A DNA stretch of 64,000 bases from the sequence record PP400784; one strand, written 5' to 3'. Position numbers and translations under genes: made by a program. Positions 23,286 through 29,567 of this stretch are shown one piece after another; positions within the stretch are counted from its first letter, which is position 1, and every line of letters starts with the position of its first letter. Below the pieces are notes generated by a model. That model searched no databases and was not told the origin of the DNA. It worked only from the letters and a program-made list of their open reading frames with translations. This DNA comes from Escherichia phage FL38.

Positions 23286-25529
23286 TTACAGCTTGCAAGA
23301 TGAGCACTCGCTAGCGTCTTCCGTACCATCTGCACCGTCGCGAACGTTCGCATAATACAGGGTTTTCAGACCGTAATATTGAGCAAACAGCATATCATCT
23401 AACACATCAGCAATATCGACTTTACCAGTCTTATAAGTGCTTGGATCGTATGATGTATTGGAACTAATCGCCTGATCCACAAACTTCTGCATGATCGCTG
23501 CCAGTGTCAGATAAGGCTTGTTACCTTTCTTGATCAGTGTCCAAAGCAGGTCAATAACATCAGCATTATTCTCTACGTTCGGAATAACCTGATTAAATTG
23601 CCCTTCTTTCGATCCTTTAACCGATACAATCCCGCGAGGCGGTTCAATACCATTTGTGCTGTTAGACACCTGAGAAGATGACTCACAAGGCATCAGCGCC
23701 GAAAGCGTACTGTTACGAATGCCATATTTTTTCAGGTCTTCGCGCAGTTCTTCCCAATCCATCTCATACACCGGATCAACCAGTTCATCTACTGTCTTTT
23801 TGTACCAGTCGATAGGCAGTTCACCGCGACCATAACGTGTTTCATGCATCAGTTCGCAAGCACCCTTCTCTTTAGCCAGTTGCACACTAGCCTTAATCAG
23901 AGCATATTGCAAGCGTTCAAACGTTTTATGCGTAAACTCGTTAGCATCTTCATATGTGAAGAAATTATCTGCTAGATATGATGCAAAGTTAGTAACACCA
24001 ACACCCAGAGAGCGACGTTTTTTGGCTGTCAGTGCTTGTTCTACAGGATAATCCTGATAATCTAACAGGTTGTCAAGTGCACGCACCATAACCATAGCAA
24101 TGCGTTCTACTTCTTCCATATTTTCGATATCGAAATTACCTAAAACATATGCTGCCAAAGTACATAGGCTAATTTCTGAATCATCACGACCCATCGGTTT
24201 TGTTGGCAGAGCAATTTCACAACACAGGTTAGATTGTTTAATCGGTGCTACATTACGAATAAACGCCCCGTGATTGTTCATGTTGTCTGTGAACGTTGGG
24301 TAGATTCGACCAGTGTTAAAACGTTCAATTGCCACCGCTAAAAACAGGTCTTCGGCTTTAACACGAGTTTTACGAACACTCGGATCTTTTTCCAGTTTTT
24401 CGTAAAGTTGGCGGAAACCTTCCTCGTCTCGGAAGTACAGATCCCACAACAAGCCACCCGCAACATCTGGACTAAACAGAGTAATGTAATCCCGTTTAAG
24501 GAATCGCTCTACCATCAGGTTATTAATCTGTACGCCGTAGTCAAGATGGCGAATGCGGTTATCTTCCACGCCCTTATTGTTCTTTAACACAATCAGACTT
24601 TCAAACTCTAAATGCCACATTGGGTAATAGAGTGTCGCTGCCCCGCCACGAATACCGCCTTGTGAGCATGACTTAACGGCAGTCTGAAAATGTTTCCAGA
24701 ATGGGATAACTCCAGTATGACGAACTTCACCATGCCCGATCTTAGATCCTTCCGCGCGAATCATGCCAGCGTTGATACCGATACCAGCACGCTTGCTAAT
24801 ATACTTGATGATTGCATTTGCGGTTTCATTAATACCCTGCAATGAGTCATCACTTTCAATCACCACACACGAACTAAATTGGCGTGTTGGGGTACGCACA
24901 CCTGCCATAATCGGAGTAGGCAGAGAGATTTGCTTATTCGCAACCGCATTATAAAAATCAATCACATGTTCAAGTCGATTTTCTGTCTCTTCTTGATGCA
25001 AGCACATACCGATCAGCATATACGCAAATTGCGGTGTTTCGATGATTTTCTTAGTGCTGCGATCTTGAACAAGATATTTCTCTTTTAACTGCATCGCACC
25101 AGCATAGGTCATTTTAAAATCAAGTTTATGGTCGATGAATTTCTCCAGATATTCCACTTCTTCACGGGAATACTTTTGCAGAATTTCGCGATCATATTTT
25201 CCGGTTGCAATATTACGCTCAATATGGCTGTAAAAATCAATTGGTTGGAATTGACCGTATACTGATTTGCGAAGCGCGAACATTGCAAGGTTACTTGCTA
25301 CATATTGATAATCGGGTGTTTCTACAGTAATGTTATCTGCTGCGACCTTAATCAATACTTTCTGGATATCGTTGGTAGACATACCTTCTGTCAGAAGTGG
25401 TTCAACCATATCAAACAATTCATATGGATCAACGTTATGACCTTCGGCTGCCGCTTCCAGAATTTTCATTACTTTTTCTTTTTCAAAAGGAACAGTCAGA
25501 CCGGAAGACTTAACAACATTTTTAATCAT
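23286..25529 (-). CDS. nrdA: Ribonucleotide reductase large subunit (class Ia, alpha)
   Basis: 747 aa; C-terminal redox tail ECSSCKL; size and position as in T4. Confidence 0.9.
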   Translation of the reverse strand: MIKNVVKSSGLTVPFEKEKVMKILEAAAEGHNVDPYELFDMVEPLLTEGMSTNDIQKVLIKVAADNITVETPDYQYVASNLAMFALRKSVYGQFQPIDFYSHIERNIATGKYDREILQKYSREEVEYLEKFIDHKLDFKMTYAGAMQLKEKYLVQDRSTKKIIETPQFAYMLIGMCLHQEETENRLEHVIDFYNAVANKQISLPTPIMAGVRTPTRQFSSCVVIESDDSLQGINETANAIIKYISKRAGIGINAGMIRAEGSKIGHGEVRHTGVIPFWKHFQTAVKSCSQGGIRGGAATLYYPMWHLEFESLIVLKNNKGVEDNRIRHLDYGVQINNLMVERFLKRDYITLFSPDVAGGLLWDLYFRDEEGFRQLYEKLEKDPSVRKTRVKAEDLFLAVAIERFNTGRIYPTFTDNMNNHGAFIRNVAPIKQSNLCCEIALPTKPMGRDDSEISLCTLAAYVLGNFDIENMEEVERIAMVMVRALDNLLDYQDYPVEQALTAKKRRSLGVGVTNFASYLADNFFTYEDANEFTHKTFERLQYALIKASVQLAKEKGACELMHETRYGRGELPIDWYKKTVDELVDPVYEMDWEELREDLKKYGIRNSTLSALMPCESSSQVSNSTNGIEPPRGIVSVKGSKEGQFNQVIPNVENNADVIDLLWTLIKKGNKPYLTLAAIMQKFVDQAISSNTSYDPSTYKTGKVDIADVLDDMLFAQYYGLKTLYYANVRDGADGTEDASECSSCKL

Positions 25530-25597
25530 ATTACCTCACTTCATATTTTAGCAGGAACAAGTTTATCCTCCATATTGGGGGCTTTCGCCCCCTTTGT

Positions 25598-26830
25598 TTA
25601 TACTGCCATTTGAGCGGTGATTGCTGGATGGCTTTGATAGTTGTGAATTTTAAAGTCTTTCGGAGTCTTTGTCAATACCTCATCTAAAGATTTAAATTCC
25701 GGCAACTCAATCGTTGGTTTATCAAACGGAACACGGCTTAACTGTTCCATAACTTGATCAAAATGGTTTTTGTAAATGTGAGTATCTCCACCAGAGAAAA
25801 TCAGTTCTCCTACCTCAAGATCACACATTTTCGCTATGATGTGAGTTAACAGCGCATAGCTGGCGACGTTAAAGGGCAAGCCTAAAAAGCTGTCTACGCT
25901 TCTCTGAAACCACATACAAGACAGTTTACCTTCATTGACGTAGAATTGCACGAAAGGATGACATACACCCAATACAGCATTATGTGTTCCTTGTACGTTC
26001 CATGAGTCAATAATGATCCGGCGATCCGTTGGATTGTTTTTAATTTGTTCAATCACGTTTTGTAACTGGTCTTCCCAAATCTTCGGGCGATAGACATATT
26101 CTTCATCGTCTTTAGTGCTCGATGTGTCTACGTCCATACTAGCAAAGATCGTGGTATCTGGTGCTAAAATATCCCCACCCAGATAATCACTATCAAGCAG
26201 ATAACCGAAATAACCATCATCTACCCATTCCTGGAATCCCCACAAGCAATATGCATCATTAACAAAATTAGATTGAGTCTTCCAGTGGTCTGCTACTAAG
26301 AATAGATTATACTCAGAATCAAACTCTTCATAACGCATACCACGCCAGATAGCACATAAACGGTCTTCTGTTTCATTGGTTGGCGTAAAGTCTTCTACCC
26401 ACGGGTGCTTAAATGTATGTGCATATTTGCTCTTAACGCGCTTAATTTTGATTTCACCGTGTGGATGGATCGGTTTGCGTCGCCATGCCATACCATACAT
26501 ATTGCCGACATTATAACCATTGAATCGCAAAGGATTCTTTTCTTTCATATCAAGGCAGTTGCCGCGCCAAATGTCGAAGGCTTCTTCGTCAAACTTACCG
26601 CGTGTAATTTCCTGTAAGCGACGGCGGTCAAGTGATCCCTCCATAAACCATAGCAACTCGCCAATTACAGAGGCTGTAGCCATCTTTTTAGTGGTCAGTA
26701 ATGGGAAACCCTTGCTTAAATCAATTCGCATCTCTGCGCCGAATTTAGATAGCGTACCTACCCCCGTGCGGTCTTCACGAGGCCAACCATTATCAAGAAC
26801 ATCACGCAACAGTTTCAAATATTCTTTCAT
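25598..26830 (-). CDS. td: Thymidylate synthase with about 125-aa internal insertion
   Basis: Conserved TS blocks DRTGVGT, RRIIIDSWN, CHPFVQFYV, FQRSVDSFLGLPFNVASYALL, SGGDTHIYKNH, C-terminal QMAV; 410 aa vs about 286 in T4. Confidence 0.85.
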   Translation of the reverse strand: MKEYLKLLRDVLDNGWPREDRTGVGTLSKFGAEMRIDLSKGFPLLTTKKMATASVIGELLWFMEGSLDRRRLQEITRGKFDEEAFDIWRGNCLDMKEKNPLRFNGYNVGNMYGMAWRRKPIHPHGEIKIKRVKSKYAHTFKHPWVEDFTPTNETEDRLCAIWRGMRYEEFDSEYNLFLVADHWKTQSNFVNDAYCLWGFQEWVDDGYFGYLLDSDYLGGDILAPDTTIFASMDVDTSSTKDDEEYVYRPKIWEDQLQNVIEQIKNNPTDRRIIIDSWNVQGTHNAVLGVCHPFVQFYVNEGKLSCMWFQRSVDSFLGLPFNVASYALLTHIIAKMCDLEVGELIFSGGDTHIYKNHFDQVMEQLSRVPFDKPTIELPEFKSLDEVLTKTPKDFKIHNYQSHPAITAQMAV

Positions 26831-27071
26831 CCCACATCACCTTTTTCTTGTTGATTGCTTTCTTACGCAGTTTTGCTACTGTCTCGTCAATATCGATAAA
26901 GACAACGCCACGGTCGAATATAGTAGCAGGTCTTGAGATATCGCTATTTTCTTGCACAGGAAGCCATGATGCGCTCGCTTCATCATAGAGATATTGTAAA
27001 CCGTAATAATCTACGGCTACTGCGTAGTTTTCACTGGTAGCCGTCCATAATTGAATAATACCGACTTTCAT
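26802..27071 (-). CDS. Hypothetical protein (about 89 aa)
   Basis: ORF overlapping td start; start trimmed to MKVGIIQLW. Confidence 0.4.
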   Translation of the reverse strand: MKVGIIQLWTATSENYAVAVDYYGLQYLYDEASASWLPVQENSDISRPATIFDRGVVFIDIDETVAKLRKKAINKKKVMWDERIFETVA

Positions 27072-27164
27072 TATTGTTCCCGTCCGCAATGTAAGCACCG
27101 ACTACCAGCAAACATCAAAGATTCACCACAATGTTTGCACTCATAATCTGTCAGAATTTTCATG

Positions 27165-27734
27165 TTACGCCTTCTTACGTTCTAAAATTTGTTCGCTGAT
27201 CAGGTAATCATCAAGGAAGTAATTATGTTCTTCTTTTGTTGCAAAGTCAAAATATAATTCCTGAATCATTTCCTTAGAGATACCAACATCATATTCGAAC
27301 GGATCATTAATTCCTGCTCGTTGAACATATGTTAACACAATACGATCCGCAAAGTCAACCGCTTTTTCAATCAGGGAAGGTCCACCGATAACACTTACCA
27401 AACCTTGCGTTTTCTCCAGGACTTTTAACAGATCCTTTAATTCAATTCCAGTATACACATTAGGCTGGTCGCCGTTTTTGGCTTTCGGTGTCGGCTTGCT
27501 GGCATCGGTACTAATAACCACATTAAGACGACCTTCCAGTGCTTTAGGCAGACTTTCAAAGGTATTACGTCCCATTACAACCGCCGCAAGTTCAACATCT
27601 CCCATAGTGCGCATTTTAAAGTTTTCCATGTCCTTTTTGATTGGACGACCCCACGGTAAACCGCCTTTAAAACCAAAAGCCCAATTTTCATCTGACATTT
27701 TAGTGTCACCAATCGCAAATACACATTGAATCAT
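27165..27734 (-). CDS. frd: Dihydrofolate reductase
   Basis: 189 aa; DHFR motifs GGLPWG, VVMGRNTFESLP; T4 position after td. Confidence 0.85.
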   Translation of the reverse strand: MIQCVFAIGDTKMSDENWAFGFKGGLPWGRPIKKDMENFKMRTMGDVELAAVVMGRNTFESLPKALEGRLNVVISTDASKPTPKAKNGDQPNVYTGIELKDLLKVLEKTQGLVSVIGGPSLIEKAVDFADRIVLTYVQRAGINDPFEYDVGISKEMIQELYFDFATKEEHNYFLDDYLISEQILERKKA

Positions 27735-27749
27735 AATATAAATCTCCCA

Positions 27750-28079
27750 TCAAATCAGTTTGAAATAGTTTTCGTTTACATTTTCTTCTGTGATTGCTGT
27801 CTTAAATTCAGTCCCATCATCAGGCGAAACATAATAGTGTTCGGAATAATCACGCCACTTTTTCAGTAAGCTGACACCAATATTAACACCATTTTCCCAG
27901 AAACGGAAGACAATTTTATCGGCAGTGTAACGATAATCACTTTGAATCAAGCTACTGTCACCGCGTCGTGTTTCGTAAATTGTAATACAATCGCGATTGG
28001 CTACTTTTAGGCATGTTTCAATAGTCCCACATGCGATAATTTCGAACGAATCGTTAACTTCTTTTTCTACGGTCCACAT
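27750..28079 (-). CDS. Hypothetical protein (about 109 aa)
   Basis: Start trimmed to MWTVEKEV with SD GAGAGGA; ORF-track start lies in the promoter -10. Confidence 0.5.
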   Translation of the reverse strand: MWTVEKEVNDSFEIIACGTIETCLKVANRDCITIYETRRGDSSLIQSDYRYTADKIVFRFWENGVNIGVSLLKKWRDYSEHYYVSPDDGTEFKTAITEENVNENYFKLI

Positions 28080-28112: not shown

Positions 28113-28140
28113 ATTATACACTACTGCGTTACACTGTCAA
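28113..28140 (-). promoter_or_regulatory. Early promoter cassette
   Basis: TTGACA-16 bp-TATAAT overlapping the 3' end of upstream gene. Confidence 0.6.
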
Positions 28141-29511
28141 CTCTTTTTCAAAAGATTTTACGATATACATGATAGTGCTCAATTCTGACGGCGCTACTGT
28201 CTCTGTGTAGCCATCCGGCATATCTTCTTTTGAGATATAGGAAGTTTTACCTTTCATCGCTTCCTTGATCGTGTTCTCTAATTCTAAGATCTTTTGACCG
28301 TCTTGTAAAGTCAATTCATAAAAGATCTCGTGGTCGAACTTAGAAACACGAGATTGGTTTTTCATTCGTTCTTGTGTTGTTAAATTGGTTATTCCAAACT
28401 TAACTGCCGTTAACGATTTATGTTTGTTTAGTTTCTGTACATAAAATGTTCCCGGTTTTATAGGTTGATAGCCCATTTTAGAACATTTTCTGCATCTTGT
28501 CCCAGATTGTACAAATTTACTATATGTTGGTGTATACTCATGACCCATTTCACATGTAATTTTTAATCTTGTTTCGACCCCAGAATAGCTACCTCCACAA
28601 AATCCGTGAAATTTATTATTACCCAACACGGAAATTATATTTTTTATTGCATCGTCTTCGTTCCTGCGACCACTACATACTCCACATCTATATCCACCAT
28701 GAAAAAAATCACTAAACGCAATATTGTACTCATGTCCATTATTACACGTCATATTAAGTCTCGTCCTTATATTTTCGTATTTTCCACCAACAAATCCATT
28801 GAAAATATGGTCTCCTTTGACCGAATTAATTCTATCTAACGCGGTAGTTTCTGTTAAACGCTTTGTCCCGCAGCATTCCGGGCATCTAGTTCCTTGAATA
28901 AAATGACCATACGTTGGTTGATATATGTGTCCATTATTACACTCTATTATTAACTTTGTTTTATGTGCACCAATGTAAGCACCACCAACAAATCCATGAA
29001 ATTTTTCATCGACCAGTGCGTTGATGATATTTTGTATAGCTTCATCATTCGATTTTTTGTGTTTATTATTGCAAATTGGACATGTATTGACACCACCAAT
29101 TATGCTGGAATAACATCTATGGTATTCGTGACCGTGTTCTTTACATTTTAATATAATTTTAGATGTCGATACATTTTTAAACTCTTCTGTCGTGAAACCC
29201 ATAAACTCGCTATCTGTTAATGAAGATTTTATATCATCAATAACTTGTTCGGTTGATTTCTTTGCATTGGGTGCGCATAAACCACATTTGGTTTTTCTTC
29301 CAACTAGTGTTTTAATAGTTTTTGTGTGTGTTGTGTGTCCTTTATCGCACATTATACATACCCTTGTATCACATCCTTTCCAATCATCAACAAACCCGAG
29401 AAATTTGTAATTTATAGAGTGACAATATTCGCGTACTGTATTCTCGTGAATTGTCGGTTGTTTTTGTCTCTTACCAACGCAAATGTCCTTAGCAAAGTAT
29501 GTTTTCAACAT
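28129..29511 (-). CDS. Multi-zinc-ribbon repeat protein with C-terminal GIY-YIG-like (T5orf172-type) domain
   Basis: Five repeats of about 65 aa (GF.GG.Y ... C..GHEY ... C..C); C-terminus GTFYVQKL ... KFGIT ... DGYTETV; start trimmed to MLKTYF with SD GGAGGA. Confidence 0.55.
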   Translation of the reverse strand: MLKTYFAKDICVGKRQKQPTIHENTVREYCHSINYKFLGFVDDWKGCDTRVCIMCDKGHTTHTKTIKTLVGRKTKCGLCAPNAKKSTEQVIDDIKSSLTDSEFMGFTTEEFKNVSTSKIILKCKEHGHEYHRCYSSIIGGVNTCPICNNKHKKSNDEAIQNIINALVDEKFHGFVGGAYIGAHKTKLIIECNNGHIYQPTYGHFIQGTRCPECCGTKRLTETTALDRINSVKGDHIFNGFVGGKYENIRTRLNMTCNNGHEYNIAFSDFFHGGYRCGVCSGRRNEDDAIKNIISVLGNNKFHGFCGGSYSGVETRLKITCEMGHEYTPTYSKFVQSGTRCRKCSKMGYQPIKPGTFYVQKLNKHKSLTAVKFGITNLTTQERMKNQSRVSKFDHEIFYELTLQDGQKILELENTIKEAMKGKTSYISKEDMPDGYTETVAPSELSTIMYIVKSFEKELTV

Positions 29512-29539
29512 TTTTATCCTCCGTTGTTTCGATGTGTGC

Positions 29540-29567
29540 ATTATACATTACCACATAAGCATGTCAA
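29540..29567 (-). promoter_or_regulatory. Early promoter cassette
   Basis: TTGACA-16 bp-TATAAT followed by conserved leader ACACATCGAAACAA. Confidence 0.65.

What the first reader, a model, noticed from the sequence alone, without database searches (positions are those of the whole stretch)
26098..26482. Thymidylate synthase carries an in-frame insertion of about 125 aa
The td ORF is 410 aa, against about 264-286 aa for typical bacterial and T4 enzymes, yet all conserved TS blocks are present and collinear. The extra segment (roughly residues 117-245) sits between the YGxxWR block and the DRRxIxSWN block. It has no intein boundary residues, and a 375-nt open frame is unlikely to be an untranslated intron. 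It may be an inserted domain. T4 td carries a group I intron, whereas this gene is uninterrupted at the DNA level.
Basis: seen in the sequence. Interest (0 to 1): 0.5.

Follow-up and report, generated by a model that had tools for sequence, protein, structure and literature searches.

The report
Endonuclease relic inside phage thymidylate synthase
The extra ~135 amino acids in this RB49-type phage's thymidylate synthase are real, translated and predicted to fold, and they are the shrunken remnant of a homing-endonuclease-like module found in frame, with no sign of splicing, in the same surface loop of this enzyme in many unrelated phages.

Summary
The window is a Krischvirus (RB49-type) phage. 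Its td ORF (25598-26830, minus strand) encodes 410 aa. One block of ~135 aa (residues 119-253, window 26072-26476) is inserted between YGMAWRR and DQLQ; all thymidylate synthase (TS) catalytic residues are intact.

It is neither an intein nor an intron. There are no Hint or Rfam hits, it is under codon-level purifying selection, and AlphaFold2 predicts a confident fold.

The new result is its origin. The insert is homologous to ~200-290-aa inserts at exactly the same site in TS genes of Klebsiella and E. coli jumbo phages, Vibrio and Bacillus phages, and probably Enterococcus and Tenacibaculum phages, and in at least 50 metagenomic protein clusters. Those long inserts match whole free-standing phage "HNH/homing endonuclease" genes (PHROG 2081, E=1.7e-33). 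They show presence/absence polymorphism between syntenic phages, and insert and host-gene identities disagree.

The RB49 version has lost the N-terminal beta domain, the C-terminal NUMOD-like part and the helix of the putative beta-beta-alpha finger. It is acidic (net -11). It is fixed in all 58 matching Krischvirus-type records with dN/dS of 0.12-0.33.

Best reading: a nuclease-dead, retained relic of an unspliced in-frame mobile module. I found no published description.

The parts
25598..26830 (-). td (thyA-type thymidylate synthase) CDS, 410 aa plus stop
   Evidence: ORF list; PF00303 E=1e-84; PDB ThyA matches E~1e-68; annotated td in RB49, JSE and Phi1
26477..26830 (-). TS N-terminal core, residues 1-118, ending in YGMAWRR
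   Evidence: Aligns to E. coli ThyA 1-82 and onward; 67/118 positions invariant among six short-form lineages
26072..26476 (-). In-frame insert, residues 119-253 (135 aa): degenerate homing-endonuclease-like module
   Evidence: Translation. tblastn to KP13-7 thyA insert E=1e-11 and Vibrio D69 E=5e-6. phmmer to TS-embedded homologues 2e-9 to 3e-4. Reciprocal hit from the long insert E~5e-12. dN/dS 0.12-0.33.
26441..26479 (-). Stalk strand 1 (residues 118-130, RKPIHPHGEIKIK)
   Evidence: AF2 DSSP strand 118-130; the motif P-x-PHG...R is shared with long-insert TS
26219..26374 (-). Helical core of the relic (residues 153-204): long helix EDRLCAIWRGMRYEEF plus W..SNFVNDAYCLWGFQEWVD
   Evidence: AF2 helices 153-169, 181-184, 186-193, 199-204. 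Corresponds to the Y..W..M..RCY / W..F.NF..D / GFQE.VD motifs of long inserts and free-standing genes. Most insert invariants lie here.
26138..26203 (-). Remnant of the two strands of the putative beta-beta-alpha finger (residues 210-231: YLLDSDYLGGDILAPDTTIFAS)
   Evidence: AF2 strands 210-213 and 228-231. Aligns to LDKDYYGSNxYSPxTCxF of long forms. The following helix with the conserved N (SSLNKxLN) is absent.
26099..26137 (-). Acidic linker (residues 232-244, MDVDTSSTKDDEE) at the place where long forms carry the finger helix and the C-terminal beta-beta-alpha / NUMOD-like subdomain
   Evidence: Alignment gap, columns ~476-545 of A1; coil in AF2; 4-aa length polymorphism among Krischvirus, 393 vs 405 nt
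26069..26098 (-). Stalk strand 2 (residues 245-254, YVYRPKIWED) leading into TS helix DQLQNVIEQIK
   Evidence: AF2 strand 245-254; V/Y-x-RP-x-I-x-DQL conserved in nearly all insert-bearing TS
25598..26071 (-). TS C-terminal core, residues 254-410, with DRRIII, catalytic C290, and the stop codon
   Evidence: Aligns to E. coli ThyA 110-264, 165 bits; invariant catalytic residues

Best explanation
The 135-aa segment is a translated, unspliced, folded relic of a mobile homing-endonuclease-like module. That module inserted in frame into the surface loop between the YGxxWR motif and the DQL helix of ThyA.

In its full form (~200-290 aa) the module equals an entire free-standing phage 'HNH/homing endonuclease'-type protein. 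It has an N-terminal SH3/Tudor-like beta domain, a helical W/F-rich core, a putative beta-beta-alpha finger (LDKDY...TCxF...N) and a C-terminal NUMOD-like part. Two strands form a stalk that carries it on the TS core.

Inferred: the module spread between td alleles by site-specific cleavage and repair (homing). It needed no intron or intein because this loop tolerates an extra domain.

In the RB49/Krischvirus lineage the module lost the beta domain, the finger helix and the C-terminal part, and it became strongly acidic. It is therefore almost certainly no longer a nuclease or a DNA binder.

The relic is kept under purifying selection. It must fold without harming TS. Inferred further: precise loss is rare, loss could restore a cleavable target site, and some secondary role cannot be excluded.

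Shown here: insertion, boundaries, homology, truncations, selection, fixation, and presence/absence in other lineages.
Inferred: past homing, loss of nuclease activity, and the reason for retention.
For: (1) Single insertion with an intact TS core.

(2) Homology of the RB49 insert to inserts at the same site in other TS:
- KP13-7 thyA E=1e-11 and Vibrio D69 E=5e-6.
- Eleven real TS-embedded hits in 1.84 billion representatives.
- A reciprocal hit from the long insert back to Krischvirus td, E 5e-12 to 4e-11.

(3) Long inserts match phage HNH-endonuclease-annotated families: PHROG 2081 E=1.7e-33, 953 E=1.5e-25, 374 E=1.8e-20. They also match about 1000 phage records, mostly free-standing genes in classic HEG positions: between the terminase subunits in fPS-9, after DNA polymerase in ICP1, and after RNR beta in SPG24. 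BFVD structure hits include proteins named homing endonuclease.

(5) Mobility signatures:
- Syntenic contigs L020 and L022 share 84-87% identical td flanks and differ by a clean 828-nt indel. The insert has lower GC, 37.7 vs 41-43%.
- Insert and core identities disagree: 64 vs 46% for P0016/P0017, and 28 vs 70% for P0011/P0021.
- The same site is occupied in three or more TS backbones sharing only 27-50% identity.

(6) RB49 truncations map to profile positions 17-73 and 191-228 of the long form. The LDKD motif is not conserved among the short forms. Net charge is -11, pI 4.76, against pI 8.5-9.5 for most long forms.

(7) AF2 of the whole RB49 Td gives pLDDT 94.4 and pTM 0.92, with the insert as a beta-ribbon plus helical head.

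(8) Purifying selection: insert omega is 0.12-0.33. For example dN 0.081 and dS 0.645 against P0002. The insert is present in all 58 matching phage records and in T4-like relatives down to 55-63% overall TS identity, with conserved frd-td-nrdA synteny.
Against: - No member of this endonuclease-like family has a demonstrated nuclease activity that I could find.
- Pfam and NCBIfam HNH models do not match the long inserts or three free-standing homologues.
- The canonical catalytic His is absent.
- Most insert-bearing TS share a distinctive small-domain sequence (N..D...P.RFNG.N.GNMY). Part of the distribution could therefore reflect one old insertion plus transfer of whole td genes, rather than repeated homing.
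- Omega of about 0.12-0.3 together with long persistence fits an exapted function as well as a merely tolerated relic.
- There are no transcript or protein data, so 'unspliced' rests on sequence and structure prediction.
Confidence: 0.7

Rival explanations
1. Exapted accessory domain. Whatever its origin, the RB49 insert now serves TS or the phage, for example as a docking surface in the T4-type dNTP-synthesising complex, as a regulator of TS, or as an acidic decoy or anti-defence surface. It is retained for that function.
For: - Purifying selection on the insert: omega 0.12-0.33, and similar to the core in the window-P0002 comparison (0.125 vs 0.098).
- Fixed in all 58 matching records and kept at similar length in lineages whose TS is only 55-63% identical overall.
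- Confident compact fold.
- Marked shift to an acidic surface, net -11.
- 27 invariant positions.
Against: - The invariant positions are mostly buried-type W/F/L/Y residues and stalk residues, as expected for fold maintenance alone.
- The insert evolves several-fold to tens-fold faster than the core in most close comparisons.
- There are length polymorphisms and independent partial deletions in sister lineages such as P0006, P0010, P0013 and P0020.
- No partner or function is indicated by any search.
Confidence: 0.25
2. Intein (possibly a mini-intein) that is removed by protein splicing.
For: It is an in-frame insertion in a conserved nucleotide-metabolism enzyme. Its size (135 aa) is close to that of mini-inteins. 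Many long forms carry Cys or Ser just after the WR motif (WRxxP[C/S]xPHG).
Against: - No Hint/intein Pfam hit on the insert or on full proteins at E<=1-10.
- No His-Asn plus Cys/Ser/Thr at the C-terminal junction (...YRPKIWE|DQL).
- RB49 has Ile at the Cys/Ser position.
- AF2 builds the flanks as a continuous two-stranded ribbon with TS.
Confidence: 0.01
3. Self-splicing intron (group I or II) that happens to be open in the td frame, as in T4 td.
For: T4 and some Bacillus phage td genes do carry group I introns (established knowledge; PMC4528723 for Bacillus phage Bobb).
Against: - No Rfam match at E<=1 in 25000-27800 on either strand.
- Amino-acid-level homology to protein domains.
- dN/dS well below 1 in the td frame.
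- Confident protein fold.
- 405 nt is too short for a HEG-bearing intron, and base composition is unremarkable.
Confidence: 0.01
4. Still-active homing endonuclease embedded in TS: RB49 Td itself cleaves insert-less td alleles of co-infecting phages.
For: - Both Asp of the LDxD motif are retained in RB49 and P0002 (LLDSDY).
- TS is a homodimer (established knowledge), which could pair two modules.
- Mosaic td in JSE and LF73P4, with the C-terminal core only 85% identical while the insert is 93-95%, suggests recombination around the insert.
Against: - The N-terminal beta domain, the helix carrying the conserved Asn and the NUMOD-like C-terminal part are all missing.
- The LDxD motif is lost in the sister short forms P0003-P0006.
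- The insert is acidic, so DNA binding is unlikely.
- The insert is fixed in the clade, so no targets remain there.
Confidence: 0.03
5. Lineage-specific expansion of a naturally variable TS loop, analogous to the Lactobacillus casei small-domain insert or the eukaryotic inserts, with no mobile-element origin.
For: This loop varies from 5 to 33 residues in insert-less phage TS such as P0029, P0097, P0028 and P0034.
Against: - Significant homology to free-standing endonuclease-like genes through the long forms.
- A graded series of lengths, 131-288 aa, with the same motifs.
- The L. casei insert lies before YGxQWR, not after it (from the 316-aa L. casei sequence, from memory; the alignment offsets are consistent with this).
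Confidence: 0.02

Closest known systems
ShiLan domain: actively homing, apparently unspliced insertion in a mycobacteriophage DNA methylase (Arsenault, Gosselin and Gogarten 2025, PMC11855218)
   Same: Both are insertions inside a phage enzyme gene that read through in frame with no stop. Neither has detectable intein or intron features. Both are predicted to protrude from the host protein. Both show sporadic distribution among relatives (for the long TS inserts) and are associated with an HNH-type endonuclease.
   Different: In ShiLan the HNH is encoded in another reading frame and the in-frame product is a featureless hairpin. Here the endonuclease-like module is itself in frame and becomes a folded domain of the host enzyme. 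The host is an essential-pathway enzyme (ThyA) rather than a dispensable methylase. The RB49 copy is a truncated, fixed relic rather than an active element.
Inteins carrying homing endonucleases, and mini-inteins as their decayed forms
   Same: In-frame invasion of conserved sites in nucleotide-metabolism genes. The life cycle runs from invasion through endonuclease decay to a residual insert. Sizes are similar.
   Different: There is no Hint splicing domain and there are no junction residues. The insert is predicted to remain in the mature protein.
Free-standing phage 'HNH endonuclease'/homing-endonuclease-like genes of PHROG 2081/953/374, e.g. Yersinia phage fPS-9 g047, Vibrio phage ICP1 ORF59, Bacillus phage SPG24 gp030
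   Same: Same domain order and motifs: the beta domain ...IRF..TG...IKD..PS..GVGYxG; then Y..W..M..RCY; W..F.NF..D; LDKD...YS..C.F...N.
   Different: Those are separate genes between conserved genes. Here the module is a domain within TS. The RB49 copy keeps only the helical core and two strands. Nuclease activity of this family is annotated, not demonstrated, and no Pfam HNH model matches.
T4 td group I intron with I-TevI (GIY-YIG)
   Same: A mobile element targeting the thymidylate synthase gene of a T4-like phage.
   Different: That is an RNA-spliced intron with a different endonuclease family and, from memory, a different site in td (downstream of the catalytic Cys). RB49 td has no Rfam intron match.
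PacI and other beta-beta-alpha-Me (HNH) nucleases
Known length variants of ThyA: the L. casei 50-aa small-domain insert, eukaryotic inserts, T4 Td inserts
   Same: Surface insertions tolerated by the TS fold.
   Different: Those are much shorter, mostly at other positions, and have no relation to endonuclease genes.

Membership tests
ThyA-type thymidylate synthase (PF00303) | Profile match above the curated cut-off over the whole fold | tested here: met
   284 bits vs cut-off 24.3, in two stretches covering profile positions to 266/266; PDB ThyA E~1e-68
ThyA-type thymidylate synthase (PF00303) | Catalytic Cys and the dUMP/folate-binding residues (E. coli R21, R126/R127, C146, R166, S167, D169, N177, H207, Y209) | tested here: met
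   R21, R270/R271, C290, R310, S311, D313, N321, H351 and Y353 are invariant or nearly so in 31-38 sequence alignments
ThyA-type thymidylate synthase (PF00303) | Enzymatic activity (dUMP to dTMP) | not testable with these tools
   Inferred from intact residues, the AF2 core and frd-td-nrdA synteny
Intein (Hint superfamily) | Hint/intein splicing domain detectable by profile or fold | tested here: not met
Intein (Hint superfamily) | Junction residues: N-terminal Cys/Ser, C-terminal His-Asn followed by Cys/Ser/Thr | tested here: not met
   The RB49 junctions are WRR|KPIHPHG and YRPKIWE|DQL. No HN[CST] occurs in the insert.
Group I/II self-splicing intron | Match to an intron covariance model | tested here: not met
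   No Rfam match at E<=1 in 25000-27800, both strands
Group I/II self-splicing intron | Removal from mRNA | not testable with these tools
   Needs RT-PCR. Argued against by dN/dS well below 1 in the td frame.
HNH / beta-beta-alpha-Me homing endonucleases | Match to curated HNH profiles | tested here: not met
   No Pfam or NCBIfam HNH hit for the RB49 insert, the long inserts or free-standing homologues. Only PHROG families annotated 'HNH endonuclease' match: long inserts at 1.7e-33, the RB49 insert at E=0.5.
HNH / beta-beta-alpha-Me homing endonucleases | Beta-beta-alpha metal finger with catalytic His and Asn/His metal ligands | tested here: inconclusive
HNH / beta-beta-alpha-Me homing endonucleases | Site-specific DNA cleavage and homing | not testable with these tools
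   There are only indirect signatures: a clean indel between syntenic phages and insert/core identity discordance
Unspliced in-frame homing insertions (ShiLan-type) | Insertion read through in frame with the host gene, with no splicing signatures | tested here: met
   definition from PMC11855218
Unspliced in-frame homing insertions (ShiLan-type) | Endonuclease encoded in an alternative frame of the insertion | tested here: not met
   Only 41-70-aa chance ORFs occur in other frames of 26072-26476. The endonuclease-like module is in the td frame.
Unspliced in-frame homing insertions (ShiLan-type) | Sporadic presence among close relatives | tested here: inconclusive
   Met for long forms (P0024 vs P0029). 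Not met in Krischvirus, where all 58 records carry it.

The most novel reading that the evidence does not exclude
Phage thymidylate synthase genes host a previously unrecognised class of mobile element. A complete homing-endonuclease-like protein invades a conserved coding sequence in frame and stays in the mature enzyme as an extra domain, with no intron or intein. The permissive loop after YGxxWR serves as a safe harbour, and the obligate TS homodimer may pair two nuclease modules. RB49 Td would then be the domesticated end-state of that cycle: a nuclease-dead, acidic domain retained under selection.
Probability: 0.4. Interest if true: 0.75.

Novelty: new variant of a known kind. Interest (0 to 1): 0.6.

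Why it matters
Homing endonuclease genes are thought to invade conserved coding sequences only when hidden in self-splicing introns or inteins. Otherwise they sit between genes. Here a conserved enzyme carries an endonuclease-like module as a permanent in-frame domain, and this is seen across Straboviridae, jumbo phages, Herelleviridae and Vibrio phages. The series runs from full-length to heavily reduced copies.

If the long forms are active, splicing is not required for invading coding sequence when a permissive loop exists. The series would also give a natural record of endonuclease decay and possible domestication. The only comparable case I found is the 2025 ShiLan report.

Practical points:
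- Several of these TS genes are mis-annotated as 'HNH endonuclease' or 'hypothetical protein'.
- The loop after YGxxWR is shown to tolerate 130-290-aa domains, which is useful for TS engineering.
- The 410-aa Td of a well-known model phage (RB49) gets an explanation.

Tried and rejected
- Word-indexed protein search with the 135-aa insert alone found nothing; the index needs shared 5-mers.
- Pfam on the insert gave no family. NCBIfam on the long inserts gave none. Pfam on three free-standing homologues gave only a sub-threshold I-HmuI NUMOD-like hit.
- PDB sequence searches with the long insert and with its profile gave only chance hits.
- Foldseek against PDB gave nothing below E=0.4.
- The AFDB Foldseek library was unavailable.
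- The two top hits of the exhaustive representative search (P0121, P0122) are repetitive junk translations, not homologues.
- Megablast of the Bacillus phage Kioshi td, looking for an insert-less near-identical allele, found only Kioshi itself.
- The promoter/terminator scan inside td was at background level, so there is no support for separate expression of the two TS halves.
- An HMM of the insert found no second copy of the module in the 64-kb window. That HMM included the RB49 row, so its match to td is by construction.
- Literature searches found no description of the RB49 td insert. The jumbo-phage and Bastille-group TS papers do not mention it either.
- Intein, intron, active nuclease and simple loop expansion were considered and rejected, as set out under rival explanations.
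Full report
**Source and gene.** The window matches Krischvirus RB49 at 99.7% over td, and 58 phage records (RB49, JSE, Phi1 and relatives) carry the same gene. The ORF at 25598..26830 on the minus strand encodes 410 aa. It sits in the T4-type order frd (27165..27734), td, nrdA (23286..25529).

**Checking the observation.**
- Pfam PF00303 matches in two stretches, E=1e-84.
- Against solved structures, residues 1-82 align to E. coli ThyA 1-82 and residues 254-410 to ThyA 110-264. T4 Td (1tis, 286 aa) aligns the same way.
- In a 31-sequence alignment the extra residues form one block between YGMAWRR (112-118) and DQLQ (254-257).
- Insert-less phage enzymes have 5-33 residues in that loop.
- My boundaries are residues 119-253, window 26072-26476.
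- All catalytic and ligand-binding residues are invariant.

**Not an intron and not an intein.**
- No Rfam family matches at E<=1 in 25000-27800 on either strand.
- No Hint or intein profile matches the insert or the related longer proteins.
- The junctions (WRR|KPIHPHG and YRPKIWE|DQL) lack intein residues.
- In the td frame the insert has dN/dS of 0.12-0.33 against eight other Krischvirus-type alleles. Against P0002, for example, dN is 0.081 and dS 0.645.
- AlphaFold2 on a 38-sequence alignment gives pLDDT 94.4 and pTM 0.92 for the whole protein.
- In that model the insert is a long two-stranded ribbon (118-130 pairing with 245-254). The ribbon carries helices 153-169, 181-193 and 199-204 and two short strands (210-213, 228-231).

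**What the insert is.**
- tblastn with the 135 aa finds the insert in every Krischvirus-type td. It also finds Klebsiella jumbo phage KP13-7 thyA (E=1e-11) and a Vibrio phage D69 gene annotated 'HNH endonuclease' (E=5e-6). The D69 gene is in fact a 477-aa TS.
- An exhaustive phmmer search of 1.84 billion representatives with the insert alone returns only TS-embedded homologues, 11 of them real.
- A search with the whole protein shows a graded series. Short forms are 401-418 aa, intermediates 448-476 aa and long forms 505-613 aa. All carry the extra sequence at the same site.
- More insert-bearing TS appear in a profile search (28 further clusters) and among cultured phages. These are Bacillus Kioshi and 015DV002, E. 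coli jumbo phages ph0011 and UE-S1, and probably Enterococcus 163/A2 and Tenacibaculum PTm1. The last two rest only on tblastn coverage extending into the insert region.

**Homology of the long inserts to free-standing genes.**
- The long inserts (~200-290 aa) match PHROG 2081 (E=1.7e-33), 953 (1.5e-25) and 374 (1.8e-20). All three are annotated HNH endonuclease.
- They also hit about 1000 phage records, mostly free-standing genes of 170-320 aa.
- Three examples sit in typical homing-endonuclease positions: between the terminase subunits of Yersinia phage fPS-9, after the DNA polymerase of ICP1, and after RNR beta in Bacillus phage SPG24.
- These align end to end with the TS insert and share its motifs. 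The motifs are the beta domain ...IRF..TG...IKD..PS.GVGYxG, then Y..W..M..RCY, W..F.NF..D and LDKD...YS..C.F...N.
- The long TS insert therefore equals a complete free-standing protein of this family plus two linker strands.

**Structure of the long insert.**
- Modelled alone it folds with pLDDT 90.3 and pTM 0.85.
- It has an N-terminal small beta domain, a helical core and a strand-loop-strand-helix at QLD / IFI / SSLNKTLN. It ends in a small C-terminal beta-beta-alpha unit.
- Foldseek against PDB finds nothing.
- BFVD returns another insert-bearing TS and dozens of free-standing viral proteins, some named homing endonuclease.
- No curated HNH profile matches, and I found no characterised member. 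'Endonuclease' is therefore an annotation and an inference, not a demonstrated activity.

**Signs that the module is or was mobile.**
- Metagenomic contigs L020 (TS 552 aa) and L022 (TS 276 aa) are syntenic around DHFR-TS. Their td flanks are 84-87% identical. They differ by a clean 828-nt indel at this site, and the insert has lower GC.
- Insert and core identities disagree. P0016/P0017 share 46% in the core but 64% in the insert. P0011/P0021 share 70% in the core but 28% in the insert.
- The same loop is occupied in TS backbones as distant as 27% identity. Kioshi's backbone is 55% identical to an insert-less Acinetobacter phage TS.
- A caveat applies. Most insert-bearing TS share a distinctive small-domain sequence, so one old insertion plus transfer of whole td genes explains part of the pattern.

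**State of the RB49 copy.**
- Relative to the long-form profile it lacks positions 17-73 (the beta domain) and 191-228 (the finger helix with the conserved Asn, and the C-terminal unit).
- The RCY motif is gone.
- The LDKD motif is LDSD in RB49 and is lost in the sister short forms.
- Most long inserts are basic (pI 8.5-9.5), whereas the RB49 insert has net charge -11 and pI 4.76.
- It is thus very unlikely to cut or bind DNA.
- It is nevertheless conserved. It is fixed in 58 records and retained in T4-like relatives whose TS is 55-63% identical overall, with the same synteny.
- It has 27 invariant positions out of 135. These are concentrated in the stalk and the hydrophobic core, against 57% and 43% invariance in the two core halves.
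- Omega is several-fold to tens-fold higher than in the core for most close pairs, but far below 1.

**Interpretation.**
- The best-supported reading is a nuclease-dead relic of an unspliced, in-frame homing-endonuclease-like module.
- It is kept because it must fold harmlessly and is hard to delete precisely.
- A secondary function is possible but not indicated.
- I give this about 0.7.
- An exapted role is a non-exclusive alternative at about 0.25.
- Intein, intron, active nuclease and plain loop expansion are each at or below 0.03.

**Comparison with known systems.**
- The closest precedent I found is the ShiLan domain in a mycobacteriophage methylase (PMC11855218). It is an apparently unspliced homing insertion that reads through in frame.
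- There, however, the HNH is encoded in a different frame and the in-frame product is a featureless hairpin.
- Here the endonuclease-like protein itself is the in-frame domain. The host is ThyA, and the RB49 copy is a fixed remnant.
- Reviews of T4-type mobile elements and genomes list two HEGs for RB49 and do not mention td.
- No other searched paper describes the insert.
- I therefore rate it a new variant of a known kind, with interest 0.6. The RB49 feature itself is a relic, but it points to a widespread and apparently undescribed architecture that is directly testable.

Noticed in passing
window 28129-29541 (-): A 470-aa ORF upstream of frd has a CapR homology domain (E=1.6e-15), a DUF4379 treble-clef zinc finger and repeated Cys-pair motifs. 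It looks like a free-standing homing-endonuclease-type gene. Its counterpart is 340 or 405 aa in two close relatives and absent in more distant ones.
   Followed up: partly
L016 4689-7876 (metagenomic T4-like relative carrying short-insert TS P0005): nrdA is split into 476-aa and 324-aa ORFs by a 237-aa ORF with a faint I-HmuI NUMOD-like hit. This is a genes-in-pieces ribonucleotide reductase like the one reported for Aeromonas phage Aeh1.
   Followed up: no
L007 (JSE) and L013 (LF73P4) td versus window td: Mosaic td. The N-terminal core is 100% identical and the insert 93-95%, but the C-terminal core is only 85% identical with dS about 0.4-0.55. This suggests a recombination breakpoint near the 3' side of the insert. 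The JSE/Phi1-type alleles also have a 12-nt shorter insert.
   Followed up: partly
L002 2138-3571 (Vibrio phage D69); also Tenacibaculum phage PTm1 (NC_049340) and Enterobacteria phages Cognac/Whisky/Brandy: Insert-bearing thymidylate synthases are deposited as 'HNH endonuclease' or 'hypothetical protein'. The insert misleads automatic annotation.
   Followed up: partly
window 25577-25592: A perfect G+C-rich hairpin (GGGGGC TTTC GCCCCC) lies in the 68-nt gap between the td stop and the nrdA start. A terminator is annotated at the equivalent place in phage Ec_Makalu_003.
   Followed up: no
window 26802-27098 (-): A small ORF (98 aa from GTG; annotated as an 89-aa hypothetical protein in RB49, JSE and Phi1) overlaps the td start by 29 nt. 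It has no Pfam match.
   Followed up: no
L015 7247-7561, L016 4373-4678; L010/L011 after td: A DUF4326 / 'NrdA.1' gene lies between td and nrdA in relatives and in some Krischvirus isolates, but it is absent in this window. The td-nrdA junction is therefore a variable spot.
   Followed up: no
P0121, P0122: The two top non-TS hits of the exhaustive search are 782- and 1083-aa proteins made of about 13 tandem repeats, apparently translated repetitive DNA. Their E~1e-14 comes from summed repeats and is spurious.
   Followed up: yes
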